A stretch of 13,756 nt of DNA from a virus. Taxonomy: Duplodnaviria > Heunggongvirae > Uroviricota > Caudoviricetes. This document shows, piece after piece, positions 1-5,972 of the stretch (its first letter is position 1; the number at the start of each line of letters is the position of its first letter). The DNA lies in IMG/VR virus record IMGVR_UViG_2874945390_000001, positions 1-13,756 of that record. The stretch is one strand, 5' to 3'. The translations under genes were made by a program, and so were the position numbers. Below the pieces are notes generated by a model. It had not been told where the DNA came from, ran no database searches, and saw nothing but the letters and a program-made list of their open reading frames with translations.

Positions 1-300
1 TTACCGCCGTAAGTGCTCCGGCTTCCTCCACTGGTAAGTATTTTTCGCGCTCTCCCTCCGTTGTTGAGAACGGCGACGATATGCCAGCAACTCAAGGACT
101 CTTGTTCGTATGTTGCGCATATCCACGCCGTTAAGCTCAATACCGTCACGGCGCATCACCTCAGCCACCACACGCGCGTAATTTTCAGCGGTGACGCTGT
201 CCGGCTGCGTGGCCACCTGTTTGCCTGTTGCCTGACAGATTCCGGTAATACGGCGGATTACTTTCAGTAGTTCGGCGTCGGTCATGGTTATGGTTTCCAT
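1..300 (-). CDS. Hypothetical protein, partial (C-terminus beyond window start); first gene downstream of the cos site, so possibly packaging-related
   Basis: ORF is open to the window edge. The ATG at 298-300 has no obvious RBS, but the internal ATG at 283-285 (MTDAELLK...) follows GGAAAC. Position after cosN/cosB matches where lambda places Nu1, but I see no recognisable Nu1 motif. Confidence 0.45.
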   Translation of the reverse strand: METITMTDAELLKVIRRITGICQATGKQVATQPDSVTAENYARVVAEVMRRDGIELNGVDMRNIRTRVLELLAYRRRSQQRRESAKNTYQWRKPEHLRR

Positions 301-454
301 AGTGATGGGGGAACAATTTCTGTAATCTGCGAAGCTGGCGATCGGTCAGACTCAAATGCCTGGCAACTTCAGTCTGAGTAGCCACTGTTCACCTCGCCCA
401 AAAATCTCCCCTCATGCGTTTTAAACATGCATCTTGCGAACAACTTTATGAAAC

Positions 455-640
455 GCGGCATATATGTCCGGTTTGAGTGTTTAATTTTTGCGCATGTCCG
501 GTTCGCAGAAAGCGCATTTCTATATTTTTCAAATGGTTAACCTTCAGAGAAACCGGACATGGTTTCCGAAAAATTTTCATAAATAGTGAAATTCTGCGCC
601 GCTCCCGCCCCGTGGCAGGCCACCCCACCGGAAGGACCCG
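455..640 (-). other. Lambda-type cos site: cosN-like core (about 595-615) plus cosB-like array of three 10-bp repeats and an IHF-like site
   Basis: Minus strand reads ACGGGGCGGGAGCGGCGCAGAATTTCACTATTTATGAAAATTTTTCGG. It aligns without gaps to the lambda left end ACG|GGGCGGCGACCTCGCGGGTTTTCGCTATTTATGAAAATTTTCCGG, with 17 consecutive identical nt (CTATTTATGAAAATTTT). ATGTCCGGTT occurs at 463-472 and 494-503, and inverted (AACCGGACAT) at 551-560. TTCAAATGGTTAA (521-533) resembles the IHF consensus WATCAANNNNTTR. Confidence 0.7.
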
Positions 641-641
641 C

Positions 642-672
642 AAAAAAAAGCCGGATTTCTCCGGCCTTTTCT
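642..672 (-). terminator. Rho-independent terminator ending the late (capsid) operon; partly bidirectional
   Basis: Hairpin GCCGGA-TTTC-TCCGGC (650-665) flanked by A8 (642-649) and CTTTTCT (666-672). On the minus strand the hairpin is followed by U8, directly after the stop of the 672..1085 ORF. Confidence 0.75.
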
Positions 673-1085
673 CAGATGGTTTTCAGTATGCGATCGATTT
701 CGCCGTCATCACCCTGATATCTGCCATCGTATGCCATGCCAGGGCTTACGGCCTGCGGGCTGTGCATGTCCATAAAGTTTTCAAAGGCTGCGGTAAGCTC
801 CGGCGCAACCTTCGGGCGTTCCTGCTCTATGGTCATGTTCAGGATTTCCCGGGCATTATCGACGCTAATACATGGCACGTTTGCCATTGCACGTAACAGC
901 GGCTGATAGTCGTCAGATTCATGAAGCGCCATAATCGCATCAGTGCGCGGCTTGTCCTGCTCTTCCAGTTTGTTAAGTTGATATATAGCCTCGTAGGTTG
1001 ATAAACCTCTGTCCGCCATTGCCCGCGCTTCGGCTTTAAATTTACTCGCCAGCGGTAGCGCCATGATAGCTTCATTGATTGCCAT
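672..1085 (-). CDS. Hypothetical protein (137 aa), last gene of the late operon
   Basis: Intact ORF with a GGGGGA RBS-like stretch upstream of the ATG and a terminator immediately after the stop. No family recognised. Confidence 0.55.
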   Translation of the reverse strand: MAINEAIMALPLASKFKAEARAMADRGLSTYEAIYQLNKLEEQDKPRTDAIMALHESDDYQPLLRAMANVPCISVDNAREILNMTIEQERPKVAPELTAAFENFMDMHSPQAVSPGMAYDGRYQGDDGEIDRILKTI

Positions 1086-1097
1086 CGTTCCCCCTGC

Positions 1098-1445
1098 TTA
1101 TCGCACCAGTGGCTGAACGGATACGCCAGAACCCGCAAAAGCGGCGCATTTTTTCGCGTCGGTGTCGACGCTCTCGGGCCAGTTAACGGCGGCGATATTA
1201 AATATCCCCGTCTTGTAACACTGTGCTGATTTCTGCTTTGACGTGTCCACGGGGTACGCCGTCAGATAAACAGCCTTGCCAGATTCCTGACCATCCCACG
1301 CCTTAAACTCGCCATTGTCCGCCAGCATCAGCGGGGTAAATTCCTGAATAACGCCAGCATCAGCGGAAAAATGTACCAGCGTCGTGGCAACCTGCTGTGT
1401 GCCTGCATATAACTCAACATATGGAGTGCCCATAGAATCTCCCAT
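1098..1445 (-). CDS. Head decoration protein, lambda gpD-like
   Basis: 115 aa. Motifs TPLMLAD...KAWDG...YKTGIF...WPE...AKK.AAFAGSGVSV parallel lambda gpD (TPLMLDT...VAWDG...YKSGTF...WPE...KKRTAFAGTAISIV). The ATG overlaps the capsid gene stop (TAATG). Confidence 0.85.
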   Translation of the reverse strand: MGDSMGTPYVELYAGTQQVATTLVHFSADAGVIQEFTPLMLADNGEFKAWDGQESGKAVYLTAYPVDTSKQKSAQCYKTGIFNIAAVNWPESVDTDAKKCAAFAGSGVSVQPLVR

Positions 1446-2500
1446 TAACCAATTTTCACAGTAACAAATTTGCGGATATCTGCCGGAACCGGCTGCGGTG
1501 CGCTGTGCGTCTGCACGTACTCAATCGCCGGATCGCCGCTCTCAATCCAGTTTTTCGGGTAGTACATGTTTTGCGTTGCGCCCGTTCTTACCGCTTCCGG
1601 ATCCATAATCGCGCCATAGGCCACCAGACCTTTATTGCTGGTGTTGCCCAGGACAAGCAAATCAGGCTCAAGGAAATATTTTTCGGTGCCGTCGCTGTCG
1701 GTGTATTTGCCGGAATAGACGATAAGGGCCAGATCACCCAGATAGCCTTTAAAGCTCACCACTTCGCCCAGGTTTTTACACGCCAGCTCTGCGGCGGATT
1801 CTGAACCACGGGAAAGATCGTACAGCTCGCGGAATTTTTTAAAGCTACGTAAGGTGCGCCATACGTCAGCGCCCATAATCATGACGTTGGCGGGGCAGCT
1901 GGCCTGTTCGGCGTATAGCTCGATGTCATCTGTCGGATCATGCGTCTCTTTATTCTGCTCAGACCATTTTTTTCCTGGCCCCTGATGGACAATGCAGTTT
2001 GCCGGCATATTCCAGTCGATTTCATAGCGTTCTATGCCTTCGCCTTCAATGATGTTTTTTCCGGTCATGACCGCATTCACTGCCAGCCATTCCACACGCG
2101 CTTTAATGGCGTTTATCTGGCGGCGCATGTTGCCAGTAATGAGGCGCATACGTCGCCAGGTGGGGTCGTTAAGCAGTGCCGGATCTTCTCCAGCCATGCG
2201 CATGATGGCTTTTGATGGATCGATTTCGTGTTTGGGTTTCATGTAGCCAGGGCGGATAGTGCTTGTTTCGTACCCTTTATCACGCTGAACCTGGCTACCC
2301 ACCACAGGCGAACAAAACGCCGACATGGTGACTTCTTCAATGTCCAGGGTATCCAGCATGACATCTTGTGTGTTGAAGGTTGCTACTTTCGGGAAAAACA
2401 GCGTGGTAAACAGCGGACTGAATTTAAATTCCGGGATATCCCCGCGATTCAGGTACGCGAAAAGCTGGTTAGTGTTAAGTGCCGTTGCTTTGTCTGCCAT
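1445..2500 (-). CDS. Major capsid protein, lambda gpE family (HK97 fold)
   Basis: 351 aa with collinear matches to lambda gpE: EFKFSPLF, PGYMKPKHE, DPTDDIE, RSFK, SRGS, SFKG, VYSG, VLGNT, YPKNW..GDPA. Its start overlaps the stop of the upstream 68-aa ORF (TAATG), with GGGGGTG upstream. Confidence 0.9.
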   Translation of the reverse strand: MADKATALNTNQLFAYLNRGDIPEFKFSPLFTTLFFPKVATFNTQDVMLDTLDIEEVTMSAFCSPVVGSQVQRDKGYETSTIRPGYMKPKHEIDPSKAIMRMAGEDPALLNDPTWRRMRLITGNMRRQINAIKARVEWLAVNAVMTGKNIIEGEGIERYEIDWNMPANCIVHQGPGKKWSEQNKETHDPTDDIELYAEQASCPANVMIMGADVWRTLRSFKKFRELYDLSRGSESAAELACKNLGEVVSFKGYLGDLALIVYSGKYTDSDGTEKYFLEPDLLVLGNTSNKGLVAYGAIMDPEAVRTGATQNMYYPKNWIESGDPAIEYVQTHSAPQPVPADIRKFVTVKIG

Positions 2501-2706
2501 TATTCACCCCCATGAGTCTGATTCATGCCAAGCGCCGCACGTAAATAGGCGCGTACCTGCCAGCCTGTTGACGGCTCAACCATCGCCAGCGGATCAAGTC
2601 CTGCCGCAATGCCCGCTTTTACGTTCTGCTGGTGGCGTTCCTTGAGCGCCTCCACGATATCGGGGCTTATGTAAACTGTCACCCCGCCTTTTTTCTCTTC
2701 TGTCAT
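2500..2706 (-). CDS. Hypothetical small protein (68 aa), first gene of the late operon, translationally coupled to the capsid gene
   Basis: ATG at 2704-2706 is preceded by GAGGA at about 9 nt. Stop overlaps the capsid ATG. No family recognised. Confidence 0.55.
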   Translation of the reverse strand: MTEEKKGGVTVYISPDIVEALKERHQQNVKAGIAAGLDPLAMVEPSTGWQVRAYLRAALGMNQTHGGE

Positions 2707-2733
2707 AGTCAGAAATTCCTCTTCGACTTAAAA

Positions 2734-2765
2734 AATTATAACTGGATGTACATCCAGTTATAATT
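2734..2765. promoter_or_regulatory. 32-bp perfect palindrome (operator) overlapping the late-operon promoter; CTG-N10-CAG core resembles an SOS/LexA-type box
   Basis: AATTATAACTGGATGTACATCCAGTTATAATT is exactly self-complementary. The core aCTGGatgtacatCCAGt has LexA-like CTG/CAG spacing, but CTGG in both half-sites deviates from CTGT. It overlaps the -10 hexamer and the predicted start site. Confidence 0.55.
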
Positions 2766-2790
2766 ATAATCATAGTTGCATTTTGTGCAA
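2763..2790 (-). promoter_or_regulatory. Sigma70-type promoter of the late (capsid) operon
   Basis: Minus strand reads TTGCAC (2785-2790), 16-nt spacer, TATAAT (2763-2768), about 55 nt upstream of the 68-aa ORF ATG. Confidence 0.5.
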
Positions 2791-2864: not shown

Positions 2865-2907
2865 AAAAGCCCGATAAGCTTCCTCCTGTACTTATCGGGC
2901 TTTTTTT
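2865..2907 (+). terminator. Rho-independent terminator on the plus strand with no convincing upstream CDS
   Basis: Stem GCCCGATAAG (2869-2878), 12-nt loop, stem CTTATCGGGC (2891-2900), then T7 (2901-2907). Preceded by AAAA. Confidence 0.6.
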
Positions 2908-2913
2908 GGGTAC

Positions 2914-2935
2914 AAAAAGCCGGATTTTCTCCGGC
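2914..2935 (-). terminator. Rho-independent terminator for the SSB gene
   Basis: A5 (2914-2918) then hairpin GCCGGA-TTTTC-TCCGGC (2919-2935); on the minus strand the hairpin is followed by U5, just after the SSB stop (2944). Same stem as the terminator at 650-665. Confidence 0.65.
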
Positions 2936-2943
2936 CTGTGCGT

Positions 2944-3354
2944 TCAGAACGGAATATCATCACCGTAGGGGTCATCGTCTCCCGCTGGTGGCTGATTACC
3001 CTGTGTGCCTGTGGTTTTGCGTCTGTTCCCGCCAGGGCGTGCCGCTCGGGCACTGATTACGCTGTCGGCAATAACCTGATAACCCTGCCGCGTTTCCCCG
3101 TTCTGTCCGGTCCACTGGCTGACCTGCATCGTGCCGGATACGCTGGCAACGTCGCCTTTTTGATGTTTAGCCAGGAAGTCGGCCTGCTTACCAAATGCCA
3201 TCACCGATAGCCATAACGTCGCCTGTCCGTCCTGTGCCTGGCTGCATGGCAGCGATACCGCCATACGCGCCAGCGTCATCGGTGTGCCCTTGCTGGTCTG
3301 TTTTACCTGCGGGTCGTCCACCAACCGTCCGTAAGCTGCTATCTGTGCTGTCAT
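2944..3354 (-). CDS. ssb: Single-stranded DNA-binding protein (SSB)
   Basis: 136 aa. OB-fold core (LWLSVMAFGKQADFL...KGD.VSVSG...W....G..R) parallels E. coli SSB, with a Gly/Gln-rich linker and the acidic C-terminal tail ...DDDPYGDDIPF (E. coli: DFDDDIPF). RBS GGAGAGGTGG upstream. Confidence 0.9.
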   Translation of the reverse strand: MTAQIAAYGRLVDDPQVKQTSKGTPMTLARMAVSLPCSQAQDGQATLWLSVMAFGKQADFLAKHQKGDVASVSGTMQVSQWTGQNGETRQGYQVIADSVISARAARPGGNRRKTTGTQGNQPPAGDDDPYGDDIPF

Positions 3355-3459
3355 GATTCCACCTCTCCGGTTTTAACGTAAGCGCCCCATCAGCGACGTC
3401 TTGTGAAAATTGTCCTGTCTGGCAACAATCGCGCCCATCTATATAGATGGACACGAACG

Positions 3460-4134
3460 ATGAATTCCCAGACAAAAAAAGATATTCCCTGCTTCCGTTC
3501 TTATTTGCCTGATGCCCTGCGTTTAAGATTTGAAGATAAACTGACCATCCGGGCCATCGCTCAGCGTCTGGGTCTCAGTCATTCCACAATACATACGCTT
3601 TTTCAGCGATTTCTTGCATCCGGTATCGCATGGCCATTGCCCGATTCAGTTTCATTCGCTCAACTTGACGCCATCCTTTATGCCAACAGAAAGAAGGAAT
3701 TAACAGAGCCTCAAATCAGAGAAGGCTCATGGCGAAAAGAACGGCGAACCAGCTATAGCCGTGAATTTAAGGTCCGTCTGGCTAAGCAGGCGTTACAGCC
3801 TGGGGCTGTTGTTGCCCGGATCGCCAGAGAACACGATATCAATAATAACCTGCTGTTTAAATGGAAAAGCCAGTACGAGGACGGCTTACTGAGCGATGAT
3901 GACATACAGGAATGCATGCCTGTCCCGGTGGCACTGACTGATACGCCGGAGCCGACCAGACCAGTTACAAATCCCTTCTGGCGTAACAAGCATGATGAGC
4001 GCCCTGAGGGGGCTCCCGGAAACGTCCCACGGTGCGAGCTGCATCTTAAATCAGGTGTGGTAAAACTGTTTGACCCTCTCACTCCGGAACTGTTACGGGC
4101 GCTAATCCGCGAAATGAAAGGGGGTATCCGATGA
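3460..4134 (+). CDS. tnpA: IS66-family accessory protein TnpA (orf1) with N-terminal HTH extension
   Basis: C-terminal half (SYSREFKVRLAKQALQPGAVVARIAREHDINNNLLFKWKSQYE) is IS66 Orf1-like. The start is ambiguous: GTG at 3403 or ATG at 3460. Confidence 0.7.
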   Translation: MNSQTKKDIPCFRSYLPDALRLRFEDKLTIRAIAQRLGLSHSTIHTLFQRFLASGIAWPLPDSVSFAQLDAILYANRKKELTEPQIREGSWRKERRTSYSREFKVRLAKQALQPGAVVARIAREHDINNNLLFKWKSQYEDGLLSDDDIQECMPVPVALTDTPEPTRPVTNPFWRNKHDERPEGAPGNVPRCELHLKSGVVKLFDPLTPELLRALIREMKGGIR

Positions 4135-4478
4135 TAACGCTGCCGACCGGTACCAAAATCTGGATCATCGCTGGCATCACAGATATGCGTTGTGGCTTCA
4201 ATGGCCTGGCTTCGAAGGTGCAGAACACGCTGAAAGATGACCCGTTCTCCGGGCATATCTTCGTCTTCCGGGGCCGCAGTGGCAAAATGGTGAAAATACT
4301 GTGGGCCGATCGTGACGGGTTATGCCTGTTCGCCAAACGCCTGGAACGGGGCCGCTTCGTCTGGCCGGTGACCCGGGAAGGGAAAGTGCACCTGACGCCA
4401 GCTCAGTTATCCATGCTACTGGAGGGGATCGCGTGGCAACATCCCAAACGGACAGAACGGCCTGGCATCCGGATATAA
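4131..4478 (+). CDS. tnpB: IS66-family TnpB (orf2)
   Basis: 115 aa. MITLPTGTKIWIIAGITDMRCGFNGLA...DPFSGHIFVFRGRSGKMVKILWADRDGLCLFAKRLERGRFVWP matches the conserved IS66 Orf2 signature. Start overlaps the tnpA stop. Confidence 0.9.
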   Translation: MITLPTGTKIWIIAGITDMRCGFNGLASKVQNTLKDDPFSGHIFVFRGRSGKMVKILWADRDGLCLFAKRLERGRFVWPVTREGKVHLTPAQLSMLLEGIAWQHPKRTERPGIRI

Positions 4479-4539
4479 CCCGTGATAAAACAAGGGAATG
4501 AACAATTAACTCCCCGATGATATTGAGCTGCTTAAAGCC

Positions 4540-5972
4540 ATGTTGCGTAAGCAACAGAGTCGGCTTCGACAGTATGCCTGTCAGGTCGCGGGCTATGAGC
4601 AGGAAATTGAACGGCTGAAAGCGCAACTCGACAGGTTGCGTCGTATGTTGTTCGGCCAGAGTTCAGAGAAAAAGCGTCATAAGCTTGAAAATCAGATCCG
4701 ACAGGCAGAAAAACGACTGTCGGAACTGGAAAACCGGCTGAACACAGCCAGAAATCTTCTGGAAGATGCATCGTCAGTCACAGATTCACCTGACACCAGT
4801 CCCCCGTCAGAAAACCCGATCGCCAGTAAGCCTGAATCCCCGGGACGAAAATCTTTACGAAAACCGCTGCCGGCAGAACTTCCCCGGGAGACACATCGCC
4901 TTCTGCCTGCTGAAACCAGTTGCCCGGCCTGTGGAGGTGTTCTGAAAGAAATGGGGGAAACAATCTCAGAGCAACTGGATATCATTAATACCGCCTTTAA
5001 AGTTATCGAAACCATACGTCCCAAACTGGCCTGTAGCCGGTGTGATGTCATCGTTCAGGCACCACTTCCCCCTAAACCGATCGAACGCGGTTATGCCAGT
5101 GCAGGGTTACTTGCACGGATCCTGGTCAGCAAATATATGGAACATATCCCTTTATATCGCCAGTCAGAAATATACGCGCGACAGGGCGTGGAGCTGAGCC
5201 GTAATACCATGGTGCGCTGGGTATCAGAAATGGCAGACAAACTCCGTCCTCTGTATATAGCGCTGAATGACTATGTTCTGGAGGCAGGAAAGGTGCACGC
5301 AGATGACACTCCGGTGAAAGTACTGGCCCCGGGGAACGGAAAGACGAAAACGGGTCGTCTGTGGGTATACGTCAGGGATGATCGTAATGCGGGTTCATCC
5401 CTGCCGGCAGCCGTCTGGTTCGCGTATTCGGCAGATCGCAAAGGAGAACATCCGCAGCTCCACCTGGCAAAGTATCAGGGCGTACTGCACTGCAGGCTGA
5501 TGCCTATGCAGGTTATAACGTACTGTACGAAACGGGCGGGGTGAAGGAAGCCGGGTGCCTGGCCCACGCCCGCCGAAAAATCCATGACGAGGATGTGCGC
5601 CGTCCGACAGAAATGACTCAGGAAGCGCTCAGACGGATAGCAGAGTTATACGACATAGAAGCGGAGATACGTGGCAGTCCGGCAGAGGAACGGCTTGCAG
5701 TCAGAAAAGCCAGAAGCGTCCAGTTGATGCAGTCGTTGTACGACTGGATACAGTTGCAGAGGAAAACGCTGTCGAAACATGCGGAGATGGCGAAGGCGTT
5801 CGACTATATCCTGAATCACTGGAATGCGCTGAACGAGTTCTGTCGTGACGGCTGGGTGGAAATAGACAACAACATCGGTGAAAACGCGTTACGATCGGTG
5901 GCGGTTGGAAGAAAAAATTATCTCTTTTTCGGCTCAGACAAGGGAGGAGAAAGTGCGGCGATCATCTACAGG
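4540..5972 (+). pseudogene. tnpC: IS66-family transposase TnpC (orf3), frameshifted and C-terminally truncated
   Basis: The two ORFs 4540..5544 and 5541..6038 are consecutive parts of one transposase. Tandem CTGCA-CTGCA at 5485-5494 shifts the frame; the other frame restores the conserved ...[22 protein letters not shown]... Similarity is lost after about 5970. Confidence 0.85.

What the first reader, a model, noticed from the sequence alone, without database searches (positions are those of the whole stretch)
672..2790. Compact four-gene late operon (68 aa, gpE-like capsid, gpD-like decoration, 137 aa) ending at cos
A promoter-to-terminator unit of only about 2.1 kb encodes a full-length major capsid protein and a decoration protein, with translational coupling (TAATG overlaps). 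No protease, scaffold or portal gene is visible, and the operon sits immediately upstream of cos. The order is capsid then decoration, the reverse of lambda's D then E. This suggests either a capsid-forming satellite (cfPICI-like) that builds its own shell, or an unusual genome organisation. The 68-aa and 137-aa proteins have no assigned function.
Basis: partly seen in the sequence, partly recalled or inferred. Interest (0 to 1): 0.75.

Follow-up and report, generated by a model that had tools for sequence, protein, structure and literature searches.

The report
Known phage-satellite capsid operon, decayed copy
This is the already-described capsid-gene operon of a common E. coli phage satellite (an EcCICFT073-type PICI), here in an IS-riddled copy. 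It is not a self-packaging cf-PICI, and what the operon does for the satellite is still unknown.

Summary
On the minus strand, 2706..672 carries four tightly packed genes: a 68-aa protein, a lambda gpE-family capsid protein, a gpD-family decoration protein and a 137-aa protein. An intrinsic terminator follows, and a lambda-type cos site abuts it.

The feature is not new. The four proteins are 88-93% identical to c1498-c1501 of the model satellite EcCICFT073. Its capsid homologue has a crystal structure (PDB 3BQW). Published knock-outs of c1499 and c1500 gave no phenotype.

The window is a classical cos-type Gram-negative PICI (int, alpA, pri-rep, ssb). It is decayed: int is frameshifted, IS600 interrupts pri, ISSfl3 is inserted, and rpp is reduced to a stub. 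It lacks terminase, portal, protease and connector genes, so it is not a cf-PICI.

I add three points:
- The 137-aa protein is homologous to the C-terminal scaffold part of lambdoid gpC/Nu3 (hhalign E 1.5e-10).
- The operon start is overlapped by a LexA-type SOS box conserved in most of the related islands I sampled.
- All four genes are under purifying selection.

My best reading is an SOS-timed accessory head-assembly module. Its function is inferred, not shown.

The parts
2865..2935 (-). Two tandem intrinsic-terminator hairpins after ssb. They isolate the operon from upstream transcription.
   Evidence: Read directly from the sequence: GCCGGA-GAAAA-TCCGGC plus T5, then AGCCCGATAAG...CTTATCGGGCT plus T3. 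Conserved in relatives.
2776..2790 (-). TTGCA-N5-TGCAA palindrome overlapping the weak -35 (TTGCAC, 2790..2785). Candidate activator or operator site.
   Evidence: Present about 80-90 nt upstream of the 68-aa gene start in E. coli, Pluralibacter and Edwardsiella islands. Binding protein unknown.
2763..2768 (-). -10 hexamer TATAAT of the inferred operon promoter, 16-nt spacer from TTGCAC.
   Evidence: Sequence; invariant in E. coli relatives. Not called by the consensus scan because the -35 is weak.
2740..2759 (-). LexA-type SOS box AACTGGATGTACATCCAGTT (CTG-N10-CAG). It is the core of a perfect 32-bp palindrome at 2765..2734 and covers the expected transcription start.
   Evidence: The arms CTGGAT/ATCCAG are the same as in the E. 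coli K-12 ruvAB box CGCTGGATATCTATCCAGCA. The near-identical 22-mer lies about 44 nt upstream of ruvA in six Tolumonas genomes. In 7 of 9 related islands the arms are conserved and the centre varies.
2500..2706 (-). 68-aa protein (c1498 homologue), translationally coupled to the capsid gene. Strand-helix-helix, possibly ribbon-helix-helix. Function unknown.
   Evidence: phrog_3255 E=1e-36. 92.6% identical to the CFT073 protein. AF2 pLDDT 77, elements E9-13/H15-34/H47-58. Only faint RHH_1 and BrnA hits. No fold or PDB match. dN/dS 0.06-0.15.
1445..2500 (-). Major capsid protein homologue, lambda gpE family (c1499 homologue).
   Evidence: PF03864 E=3.2e-48. PDB 3BQW E=7e-216 and lambda capsid 7VI9 E=3e-82. 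43% identical to lambda gpE and 45% to the capsid protein of the CFT073 lambdoid prophage at icd. dN/dS about 0.19.
1098..1445 (-). Head decoration protein homologue, lambda gpD family (c1500 homologue). The likely true start is the ATG at 1433 (111 aa).
   Evidence: PF02924 E=3.6e-18. phrog_49. 38% identical to lambda gpD. 91.9% identical to CFT073 c1500.
672..1085 (-). 137-aa protein (c1501 homologue). Two helical repeats plus a tail, homologous to the C-terminal scaffold region of lambdoid gpC protease/Nu3.
   Evidence: phrog_53 protease C-terminus, E=1e-9. BLASTP 4e-10 to residues 416-484 of the CFT073 lambdoid prophage S49 peptidase. 2e-10 to a 195-aa Nu3-like protein, which itself matches lambda Nu3 at 2e-16. 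hhalign probability 96.9%, E=1.5e-10 over 118 columns. AF2 gives an all-helical model with a disordered tail.
642..665 (-). Intrinsic terminator of the operon (6-bp GC stem, GAAA loop, T8).
   Evidence: Sequence. The hairpin was also detected. Conserved in CFT073.
599..640 (-). Lambda-type cosQ and cosN. cosN GGGCGGGAGCGG lies at 610..599.
   Evidence: Local alignment to the joined lambda cos.
464..560 (-). cosB-like region with three exact AACCGGACAT repeats, one inverted and two direct. The arrangement resembles what I recall of lambda R3/R2/R1 (my own knowledge, not checked here).
   Evidence: Three exact copies within 100 bp. The window has 4 matches at up to 1 mismatch against 0.86 expected. 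The same repeats occur in the inverted second cos of CFT073.
1..385 (-). Stub of a TerS/Rpp-like winged-HTH gene (about 28 codons, 385..~300), then an out-of-frame 99-aa gene (300..1). There is no intact rpp.
   Evidence: phrog_7289 and phrog_57 match only the N-terminus; phrog_1561 matches at full length. The same arrangement occurs in L001. CFT073 has the 144-aa RppA gene here.

Best explanation
IDENTITY (about 0.97). The region is the conserved late, or capsid, operon of a classical cos-type Gram-negative phage-inducible chromosomal island of the EcCICFT073 family. It is homologous gene for gene to c1498-c1501. This copy of the island is decayed. The integrase is frameshifted, IS600 sits in pri-rep, ISSfl3 sits upstream of ssb, and rpp is reduced to a stub. 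The four operon ORFs are intact.

ANATOMY.
- Shown: two terminators after ssb isolate the unit.
- Shown in sequence only: a promoter with a perfect -10 and a weak -35.
- Inferred regulation: a conserved TTGCA-N5-TGCAA palindrome overlaps the -35, and a LexA-type SOS box lies over the start site.
- The genes encode a small strand-helix-helix protein of unknown role, a gpE-family capsid protein, a gpD-family decoration protein, and a truncated Nu3-type scaffold homologue.
- The terminator abuts cosQ-cosN-cosB.

MECHANISM (inferred, about 0.4). LexA cleavage during the SOS response also induces lambdoid helper prophages. I propose that the same event derepresses this operon. The satellite then supplies a matched set of shell protein, cognate scaffold piece and cement protein. 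These would enter head assembly on the helper's portal-protease initiator and form or co-form shells. Satellite concatemers would be packaged into those shells from the adjacent cos.

The module is accessory. Published work shows the capsid and decoration genes are dispensable for transfer by lambda, phi80 and the native CFT073 helper. Their benefit is therefore probably helper-specific or quantitative.
For: Identity:
- Pfam and PHROG assignments.
- 88-93% protein identity to the CFT073 genes, and PDB 3BQW.
- The same four-gene operon in all seven E. coli islands inspected.
- 584 complete E. coli genomes match at least 80% of the 3.1-kb query spanning cos, the operon and ssb. 619 of 5426 match the promoter plus 68-aa gene query.
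- The 68-aa/capsid/decoration trio also occurs in Pluralibacter and Edwardsiella satellites.
- PICI context in the window.
- Literature: PMC6092414, PMC6739421, PMC10111431.

Functional constraint: dN/dS is 0.06-0.37 for all four genes.

Scaffold homology. Lambda Nu3 is the scaffold. It is required for incorporation of portal protein B into the procapsid and has reported interactions with C and E (PMC3224144).

SOS box:
- The arms match the E. coli ruvAB box.
- A near-identical 22-mer lies upstream of ruvA in six Tolumonas genomes.
- The arms are conserved and the centre is variable in 7 of 9 islands, including Pluralibacter.
Against: Published experiments:
- Deleting c1499 or c1500 did not change transfer or lambda interference.
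- The authors report no phenotype for c1499.
- With lambda as helper, all packaged DNA was phage-sized.
- Of the genes downstream of the ori cloned singly in pBAD18, only c1503 inhibited lambda.

Limits of my evidence:
- No evidence here or in the papers read shows the proteins in particles.
- LexA binding is untested. The outer palindrome arms covary symmetrically (T..A versus C..G), which LexA does not require.
- The box is absent from the most divergent E. coli island (VG35A2) and from the helper-embedded Edwardsiella island.
- The direct profile match of the 137-aa family to lambda Nu3 itself is weak (E 0.02). The link rests on intermediates.
- Fold searches gave nothing.
Confidence: 0.8

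Rival explanations
1. Anti-phage interference module. The capsid homologue and the Nu3-like scaffold mimic would act as dominant-negative subunits. They would poison or mis-size head assembly of lambdoid phages, whether helper or non-helper. This would protect the host or favour the satellite.
For: The 137-aa protein keeps only the C-terminal part shared by the helper's protease and scaffold. That is the logic of SaPI1 CpmB, which competes with the helper scaffold for its site on the capsid protein (PMC5644958). SaPIbov5 Ccm is a capsid homologue that redirects assembly (PMC8569155). The operon stays intact in an otherwise immobilised island, as would fit a host-beneficial function.
Against: Deleting c1499 or c1500 did not relieve lambda interference. 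Of the genes downstream of the ori cloned singly, only c1503 (RppA) inhibited lambda. There are no hits to PADLOC defence models. Co-expression of the whole operon and non-helper phages have not been tested.
Confidence: 0.2
2. The palindrome is not a LexA operator. It would instead be the operator of the 68-aa (possibly ribbon-helix-helix) protein, giving autoregulation, or an RNA/DNA hairpin. On this view the operon is switched on by AlpA or a helper factor and not by SOS.
For: The palindrome extends to 14-bp arms, beyond any LexA box. Its outer positions change symmetrically between islands. The 68-aa protein has a strand-helix-helix topology and faint RHH hits. The terminator scan also flags the palindrome as a hairpin followed by a T-run. 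alpA expression depends on the helper and not on SOS (PMC6092414).
Against: In O55:H7, 2012C-4221 and Pluralibacter only the CTGGAT...TCCAG arms are kept, while the outer arms and the centre differ. That is the LexA pattern. The same sequence sits at the ruvA SOS-box position in Tolumonas. The RHH assignment is not significant.
Confidence: 0.25
3. Functionless cargo. The genes would be head genes recently captured from helper prophages that are simply decaying. Mageeney et al. propose cycles of capture and loss of this kind.
For: No phenotype was found for c1499. Helper-embedded PICIs sit inside head genes and could capture neighbours (PMC10111431; L014). Content after the decoration gene varies: 137 aa in E. 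coli, 77 plus 139 aa in Pluralibacter, and nothing in Edwardsiella.
Against: dN/dS is 0.06-0.37 with intact ORFs across lineages whose dS reaches about 0.3. The proteins are only 43-45% identical to helper gpE, so the capture is old. The gene order (E, D, Nu3-like) is the reverse of the phage order. The dedicated promoter and operator are conserved across genera.
Confidence: 0.1
4. Capsid-forming PICI (cf-PICI) or another satellite that makes and fills its own heads and steals only tails.
For: It has its own major capsid and decoration genes, plus a scaffold-like gene, next to cos.
Against: There is no TerS, TerL, HNH, portal, protease or connector in the window or in intact relatives. Transfer of EcCICFT073 needs the helper's TerS. 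The capsid gene is dispensable. The NCBI name 'head-tail connector' for the 137-aa protein has no HMM support here.
Confidence: 0.03
5. Fragment of an ordinary defective lambdoid prophage head cluster.
For: Lambda-family E and D homologues and a lambda-like cos are present.
Against: The gene order is reversed relative to lambda, and the flanking genes are PICI genes. In intact relatives the element is about 10 kb and is bounded by int on one side and host genes on the other.
Confidence: 0.02

Closest known systems
EcCICFT073 late region c1498-c1501 (classical E. coli PICI; Fillol-Salom 2018 PMC6092414, Fillol-Salom 2019 PMC6739421; PDB 3BQW)
   Same: The same four genes in the same order, at 92.6, 89.7, 91.9 and 88.3% protein identity. 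The same promoter region and palindrome, the same terminator, and cos directly downstream.
   Different: The window has one cos where CFT073 has two. It has no PerC gene upstream. rpp is reduced to a 28-codon stub where CFT073 has the 144-aa RppA. The island is disrupted by IS600, ISSfl3 and an int frameshift.
cf-PICIs such as EcCIEDL933 (bioRxiv 10.1101/2022.09.08.507074)
   Same: The same int, alpA and rep backbone type, and a satellite-encoded major capsid protein.
   Different: cf-PICIs also encode protease, portal, connectors, HNH, TerS and TerL, and they make satellite-sized capsids. None of those genes is present here.
Lambda head genes C/Nu3, D and E
   Same: The capsid protein is 43% identical to gpE and the decoration protein 38% to gpD. 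The 137-aa protein shares the repeat and tail of the C/Nu3 C-terminus through intermediates.
   Different: The order here is E, D, Nu3-like, against C/Nu3, D, E in lambda. There is no protease domain and no portal. An extra 68-aa gene has no lambda head counterpart.
SaPI1 CpmB, a competing scaffold (PMC5644958), and SaPIbov5 Ccm, a capsid homologue (PMC8569155)
   Same: These are satellite-encoded proteins related to the helper's scaffold or capsid protein. That is the closest functional precedent for the 137-aa and 351-aa proteins.
   Different: They come from Gram-positive systems and are unrelated in sequence. They cause small capsids, whereas EcCICFT073 DNA was packaged at phage size with lambda.
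SaPI operon I (LexA-controlled packaging operon; Ubeda 2007, cited in PMC6092414)
   Same: A satellite morphogenesis or packaging operon with an SOS box in its promoter.
   Different: LexA control here is only inferred from sequence. I found no report of it for Gram-negative PICIs in the library searched.
Helper-embedded PICIs (Mageeney 2023, PMC10111431)
   Same: The same 68-aa/capsid/decoration trio is seen in an Edwardsiella island embedded in a lambdoid portal gene (L014).
   Different: Nothing in the window shows embedding in a prophage. Its flanks are not in the window, and the intact E. coli relatives inspected sit between host genes. The embedded Edwardsiella island lacks the SOS box and the 137-aa gene.

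Membership tests
Classical Gram-negative PICI (EcCICFT073 type) | Tyrosine integrase at one end | tested here: met
   NF007246 matches both halves (1.9e-101 and 4.5e-60). The gene is split by a frameshift into 298-aa and 149-aa ORFs, so it is probably inactive.
Classical Gram-negative PICI (EcCICFT073 type) | alpA-type regulator downstream of int | tested here: met
   68-aa ORF at 12031..11825. Phage_AlpA E=0.0035, below the Pfam cut-off. phrog_66 E=5.5e-7. The position matches relatives.
Classical Gram-negative PICI (EcCICFT073 type) | Own primase/replicase (pri-rep) | tested here: met
   D5_N, DUF5906 and Pox_D5 domains, and P4-family primase TIGR01613 at 107 bits. The N-terminus is cut off by IS600.
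Classical Gram-negative PICI (EcCICFT073 type) | Helper-type cos site | tested here: met
   cosQ and cosN align to lambda cos. The cosB region differs from lambda, as reported for EcCICFT073.
Classical Gram-negative PICI (EcCICFT073 type) | Rpp (redirects helper TerS to the satellite cos) | tested here: not met
   Only about 28 N-terminal codons of a TerS/Rpp-like wHTH gene remain. Rpp is present in many islands of this family but is not universal.
Classical Gram-negative PICI (EcCICFT073 type) | Size about 10-15 kb, with no tail, lysis or terminase genes | tested here: met
   13.76 kb minus about 1.26 kb of IS600 and about 2.6 kb of ISSfl3 gives about 9.9 kb. No such genes appear in the ORF, Pfam or PHROG scans.
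Classical Gram-negative PICI (EcCICFT073 type) | Helper-dependent induction, packaging and transfer | not testable with these tools
   Needs experiments. This copy is probably immobile because int and pri are disrupted.
cf-PICI | Own TerS, TerL and HNH | tested here: not met
   None found.
cf-PICI | Own portal, maturation protease and head-tail connectors | tested here: not met
   None found. The 137-aa protein matches only the non-catalytic C-terminal part of protease/scaffold proteins. It matches no connector family.
Lambda gpE major capsid family (PF03864) | Full-length match above the curated cut-off | tested here: met
   164.9 bits against a cut-off of 22.9, residues 26-349. PDB 3BQW and 7VI9.
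Lambda gpD decoration family (PF02924) | Match above the curated cut-off | tested here: met
   66.2 bits against a cut-off of 29.1.
Lambdoid gpC/Nu3 C-terminal scaffold region | Sequence homology to the repeat plus tail shared by protease C and scaffold Nu3 | tested here: met
   hhalign 96.9%, E=1.5e-10. BLASTP 4e-10 to the CFT073 lambdoid prophage protease C-terminus. The direct match to lambda Nu3 alone is only E 0.02.
Lambdoid gpC/Nu3 C-terminal scaffold region | Scaffolding activity or binding to capsid or portal protein | not testable with these tools
   No multimer prediction or experiment was available.
LexA-repressed (SOS) promoter | CTG-N10-CAG operator overlapping the promoter, with conserved arms | tested here: met
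LexA-repressed (SOS) promoter | LexA binding and SOS induction | not testable with these tools
   Needs EMSA and reporter assays.
Ribbon-helix-helix DNA-binding proteins (68-aa protein) | Significant profile or fold match | tested here: inconclusive
   The topology fits. RHH_1 reaches only E=0.064 at best. There are no Foldseek or PDB hits.

The most novel reading that the evidence does not exclude
The four genes would be a self-consistent, SOS-timed shell kit: a capsid protein, its own Nu3-type scaffold piece, a cement protein and a small DNA-binding-like factor. With some natural helpers, classical PICIs would use it to build their own or chimeric shells, possibly of different size, on a stolen portal. 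That would make this module an evolutionary intermediate between capsid-stealing PICIs and cf-PICIs. Alternatively, the Nu3-like protein could be a CpmB-style competing scaffold. The published negative results used lambda, phi80 and one native helper, and only single-gene deletions. They do not exclude this reading.
Probability: 0.2. Interest if true: 0.65.

Novelty: already known. Interest (0 to 1): 0.28.

Why it matters
As found, it matters little. The capsid and decoration genes of E. coli PICIs were described in 2018, one has a crystal structure, and the module is in roughly one complete E. coli genome in nine.

One small open question remains. This operon is widespread, is under purifying selection, and has no known phenotype.

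Two sequence-level results here make that question more testable. I did not find either in the literature I could search.
- The fourth gene is a truncated Nu3-type scaffold homologue, so the module contains shell, scaffold and cement proteins.
- The promoter carries a LexA-type box. That would parallel SaPI operon I and separate this operon's control from the helper-dependent alpA switch.

Tried and rejected
- Direct BLASTP of the 137-aa protein against lambda C, FI and W found nothing. The homology appeared only through other lambdoid protease/scaffold proteins.
- The exhaustive HMMER search with the 137-aa protein found only 8 cluster representatives. The family is narrow.
- tblastn against phages gave a single hit, in a frameshift-ridden phage record.
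- The PDB sequence search for the 137-aa protein found only one insignificant hit (E 1.4). Searches with the 99-aa protein and with a hypothetical wHTH-99aa fusion found nothing meaningful. I dropped the idea that the 99-aa ORF or a frameshift fusion is an Rpp.
- Foldseek of the 68-aa model against PDB and of the 137-aa model against BFVD gave no significant match.
- Profile comparison of the 68-aa family with all lambda head proteins gave nothing.
- The search for related loci with the capsid protein in genome contigs confirmed no locus.
- I suspected that the published 'c1501::tetA' marker had inactivated the Nu3-like gene, which would have made the negative results uninformative. The primer sequences show the cassette lies immediately after the c1501 stop codon, so I rejected this.
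- The NCBI name 'phage head-tail connector protein' for the 137-aa protein has no HMM support here.
- PADLOC defence models gave no hits on operon proteins.


Full report
OBSERVATION

On the minus strand the window has four close-packed ORFs: 2706..2500 (68 aa), 2500..1445 (351 aa), 1445..1098 (115 aa) and 1085..672 (137 aa).

The 351-aa protein is a full-length member of the lambda gpE capsid family. Pfam PF03864 gives E=3.2e-48. It is 43% identical to lambda gpE.

The 115-aa protein belongs to the gpD decoration family. PF02924 gives E=3.6e-18. It is 38% identical to lambda gpD over 76 residues.

The 68-aa stop and the capsid start overlap in TAATG. The capsid stop overlaps an ATG as well. 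Relatives, however, are annotated from the next ATG, which has a GGGAGA Shine-Dalgarno and gives 111 aa.

A GC hairpin plus T8 at 665..642 ends the unit. A lambda-like cosQ/cosN follows at once, with cosN GGGCGGGAGCGG at 610..599. Two tandem terminators after ssb (2935..2865) isolate the unit upstream. The described object is therefore real, and the reversed order (E then D) is correct.

CONTEXT

The rest of the window is a phage-inducible chromosomal island, all on the minus strand:
- A P4-type tyrosine integrase, split by a frameshift.
- An AlpA-like gene.
- A region with two C4 antisense RNAs, isrK and an Ash-family ORF.
- A DUF4222 gene.
- A D5_N/P4-family primase whose N-terminus is cut off by IS600.
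- An ISSfl3 (IS66-family) element.
- ssb, then the operon and cos.
- A 28-codon stub of a TerS/Rpp-like wHTH gene, followed out of frame by a 99-aa gene.

There is no tRNA. There is no terminase, portal, protease, connector, tail or lysis gene. Without the two IS elements the island is about 9.9 kb.

RELATIVES AND LITERATURE

A 3.1-kb query spanning cos, the operon and ssb is matched at 80% coverage or more in 584 complete E. coli genomes. A query of the promoter plus the 68-aa gene is matched in 619 of 5426.

Intact islands sit between host genes. One runs int ... pri ... ssb, PerC, the four genes, cos, a 93-aa gene, then clpS. In CFT073 the island ends next to phoQ.

That CFT073 locus is the model satellite EcCICFT073. 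The window's proteins are 92.6, 89.7, 91.9 and 88.3% identical to its four genes. The capsid protein matches PDB 3BQW, deposited as 'putative capsid protein of prophage', at E=7e-216.

Fillol-Salom et al. 2018 (PMC6092414) named c1499 a capsid protein and c1500 a head decoration protein. They reported:
- Deleting either gene did not change transfer or lambda interference.
- They could not find a phenotype for c1499.
- All DNA packaged with lambda as helper was phage-sized.

Their supplement lists c1501 as the 137-aa protein. Their primers show that the tetA marker sits just after its stop codon, so the operon ORFs were intact in those tests.

Fillol-Salom et al. 2019 (PMC6739421) cloned the genes downstream of the ori singly. 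Only c1503 (RppA) inhibited lambda.

Mageeney et al. 2023 (PMC10111431) state that a capsid gene is present in 21 of 29 reference Gram-negative PICIs and is not needed for transfer.

cf-PICIs are defined by a full set of capsid and packaging genes, which this element lacks. The finding is therefore an already-described feature of a known satellite family. The cfPICI-like reading fails on gene content.

WHAT I CAN ADD

(1) The 137-aa protein is a scaffold relative.
- It matches the C-terminal, non-catalytic part of 'head maturation protease' profiles (phrog_53 positions 474-566 of 583, E=1e-9).
- It matches residues 416-484 of the S49 protease of the lambdoid prophage integrated at icd in CFT073 (4e-10). 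Mageeney et al. place the EcCICFT073 helper prophage at icd, so this is probably the native helper.
- It matches the equivalent stretch of a lambdoid phage record, just upstream of that record's D and E genes (7e-12).
- It matches a 195-aa stand-alone Nu3-like protein (library-wide E=7.7e-5, pairwise 2e-10). That protein matches lambda Nu3 at 2e-16.
- A profile-profile comparison of the two families gives 96.9% probability, E=1.5e-10, over 118 columns.
- The direct match to lambda Nu3 alone is weak (E 0.02).
- The protein has two copies of the IMxL...A..(I/L)L repeat and the F(E)xFM..HSP tail. AF2 predicts an all-helical body and a disordered tail.

Lambda Nu3 is the scaffold. It is required for incorporation of portal protein B into the procapsid and has reported interactions with C and E (PMC3224144).

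(2) The 68-aa protein is always translationally coupled to the capsid gene, including in Pluralibacter and Edwardsiella islands. It has a strand-helix-helix topology. It gives only faint RHH hits and no structural match. Its role stays unknown.

(3) Regulation.
- The promoter has a perfect -10 (2768..2763) and a weak -35, TTGCAC. The consensus scan does not call it.
- A TTGCA-N5-TGCAA palindrome over the -35 is conserved in three genera.
- Four bases after the -10 lies AACTGGATGTACATCCAGTT, a CTG-N10-CAG site.
- Its arms equal those of the E. coli K-12 ruvAB SOS box.
- The near-identical 22-mer occurs, in one genome per species, only in six Tolumonas genomes. In each it lies about 44 nt upstream of ruvA.
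- In 7 of 9 related islands the arms are kept while the central four bases vary. That is the pattern of a LexA operator.
- I found no mention of this for Gram-negative PICIs in the searchable library.
- It would parallel LexA control of SaPI operon I (reference).

(4) All four genes are under purifying selection, with dN/dS of 0.06-0.37.

MECHANISM

What is shown: the gene identities, the conservation, the isolated transcription unit and the adjacency to cos.

What is inferred (about 0.4): SOS derepression through LexA, timed with helper prophage induction, yields a matched capsid protein, scaffold piece and decoration protein. These join head assembly on the helper's portal-protease initiator. 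The module is accessory or helper-specific, because single deletions have no phenotype with three helpers.

Rivals:
- An interference role of the CpmB or Ccm type. The lambda data argue against it for single genes, but the whole operon has not been tested.
- The palindrome as operator of the 68-aa protein or as a hairpin. The symmetric covariation of the outer arms favours this.
- Functionless captured cargo. dN/dS and the dedicated conserved promoter argue against it.
- A cf-PICI or a prophage fragment. Both are contradicted by gene content and context.

VERDICT

The feature is already known. This copy sits in a decayed island, probably immobile, with Shigella-type IS elements.

Interest is low to moderate. 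It rests only on the unresolved function of a very common operon and on the two new, testable sequence inferences.

Noticed in passing
window 12507-13756 (-): The integrase is split by a frameshift into 298-aa and 149-aa ORFs that together cover the 413-position integrase profile. It is probably a pseudogene. The window begins exactly at its start codon.
   Followed up: partly
window ~7930-9187 and ~3373-5971: IS600 is inserted in pri-rep about 50 codons from its start. ISSfl3 (IS66 family, with its transposase frameshifted) is inserted just upstream of ssb. Both are Shigella-type IS elements at 99.4-99.5% identity to copies in E. coli genomes, which suggests a Shigella or EIEC host and an immobilised island.
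   Followed up: partly
window 10284-10951 (-): Rfam finds two C4 antisense RNAs, an isrK RNA and a c4-a1b1 target, next to Ash-family and Icd-like coding remnants. This is a P1/P4-style antisense immunity region duplicated inside the PICI.
   Followed up: no
window 464-560 (-): Three exact AACCGGACAT repeats lie downstream of cosN, one inverted and two direct, with an A/T-rich stretch between. As I recall, lambda cosB R3/R2/R1 are arranged this way around an IHF site. These are candidate R elements of the satellite cosB. The same repeats occur in the inverted second cos of CFT073.
   Followed up: partly
window 1-385 (-); L001 11702-12086: A 28-codon TerS/Rpp-like wHTH stub is followed out of frame by a conserved 99-aa gene (phrog_1561). 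The identical arrangement is present in E. coli FDAARGOS_943. CFT073 has the full 144-aa rppA plus a 93-aa homologue instead. How such rpp-less islands direct packaging is unclear.
   Followed up: partly
L001 ~14420-14800; L013 ~3100-3370: Cos number and orientation vary between islands. FDAARGOS_943 has a second cos between ssb and the operon. CFT073 has a second, inverted cos after rppA. The window has only one.
   Followed up: partly
window 2734-2765 (-) versus L001, L002, L013: The outer arms of the 32-bp palindrome differ between islands by a symmetric pair of changes (AATT...AATT versus AATC...GATT) that keeps the palindrome perfect. LexA binding alone does not explain this.
   Followed up: partly
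L014 1-16213 (Edwardsiella tarda): A helper-embedded PICI carries int, alpA, pri, a 70-aa gene, a capsid gene and a decoration gene. It is inserted in the portal gene of a lambdoid prophage, directly upstream of that prophage's S49 protease, D, E and FI genes. It lacks the SOS box and the 137-aa gene.
   Followed up: partly
L006-L011 (Tolumonas spp.): The 22-mer TAACTGGATGAACATCCAGTTA lies between ruvC and ruvA in six Tolumonas genomes. It is presumably their ruvAB SOS box.
   Followed up: yes
window 672-1085 (-) and database homologues P0001, P0005-P0008: NCBI names many homologues 'phage head-tail connector protein'. No NCBIfam or Pfam model supports that name for the window protein or six relatives. 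The name looks like an annotation error, given the Nu3-type homology.
   Followed up: yes
L018 4861-5346 (E. coli O55:H7 USDA5905): In this island a gene annotated 'terminase small subunit' follows the four-gene operon at the position of rpp. The post-cos gene is therefore variable among islands: TerS-like, RppA or a stub.
   Followed up: no
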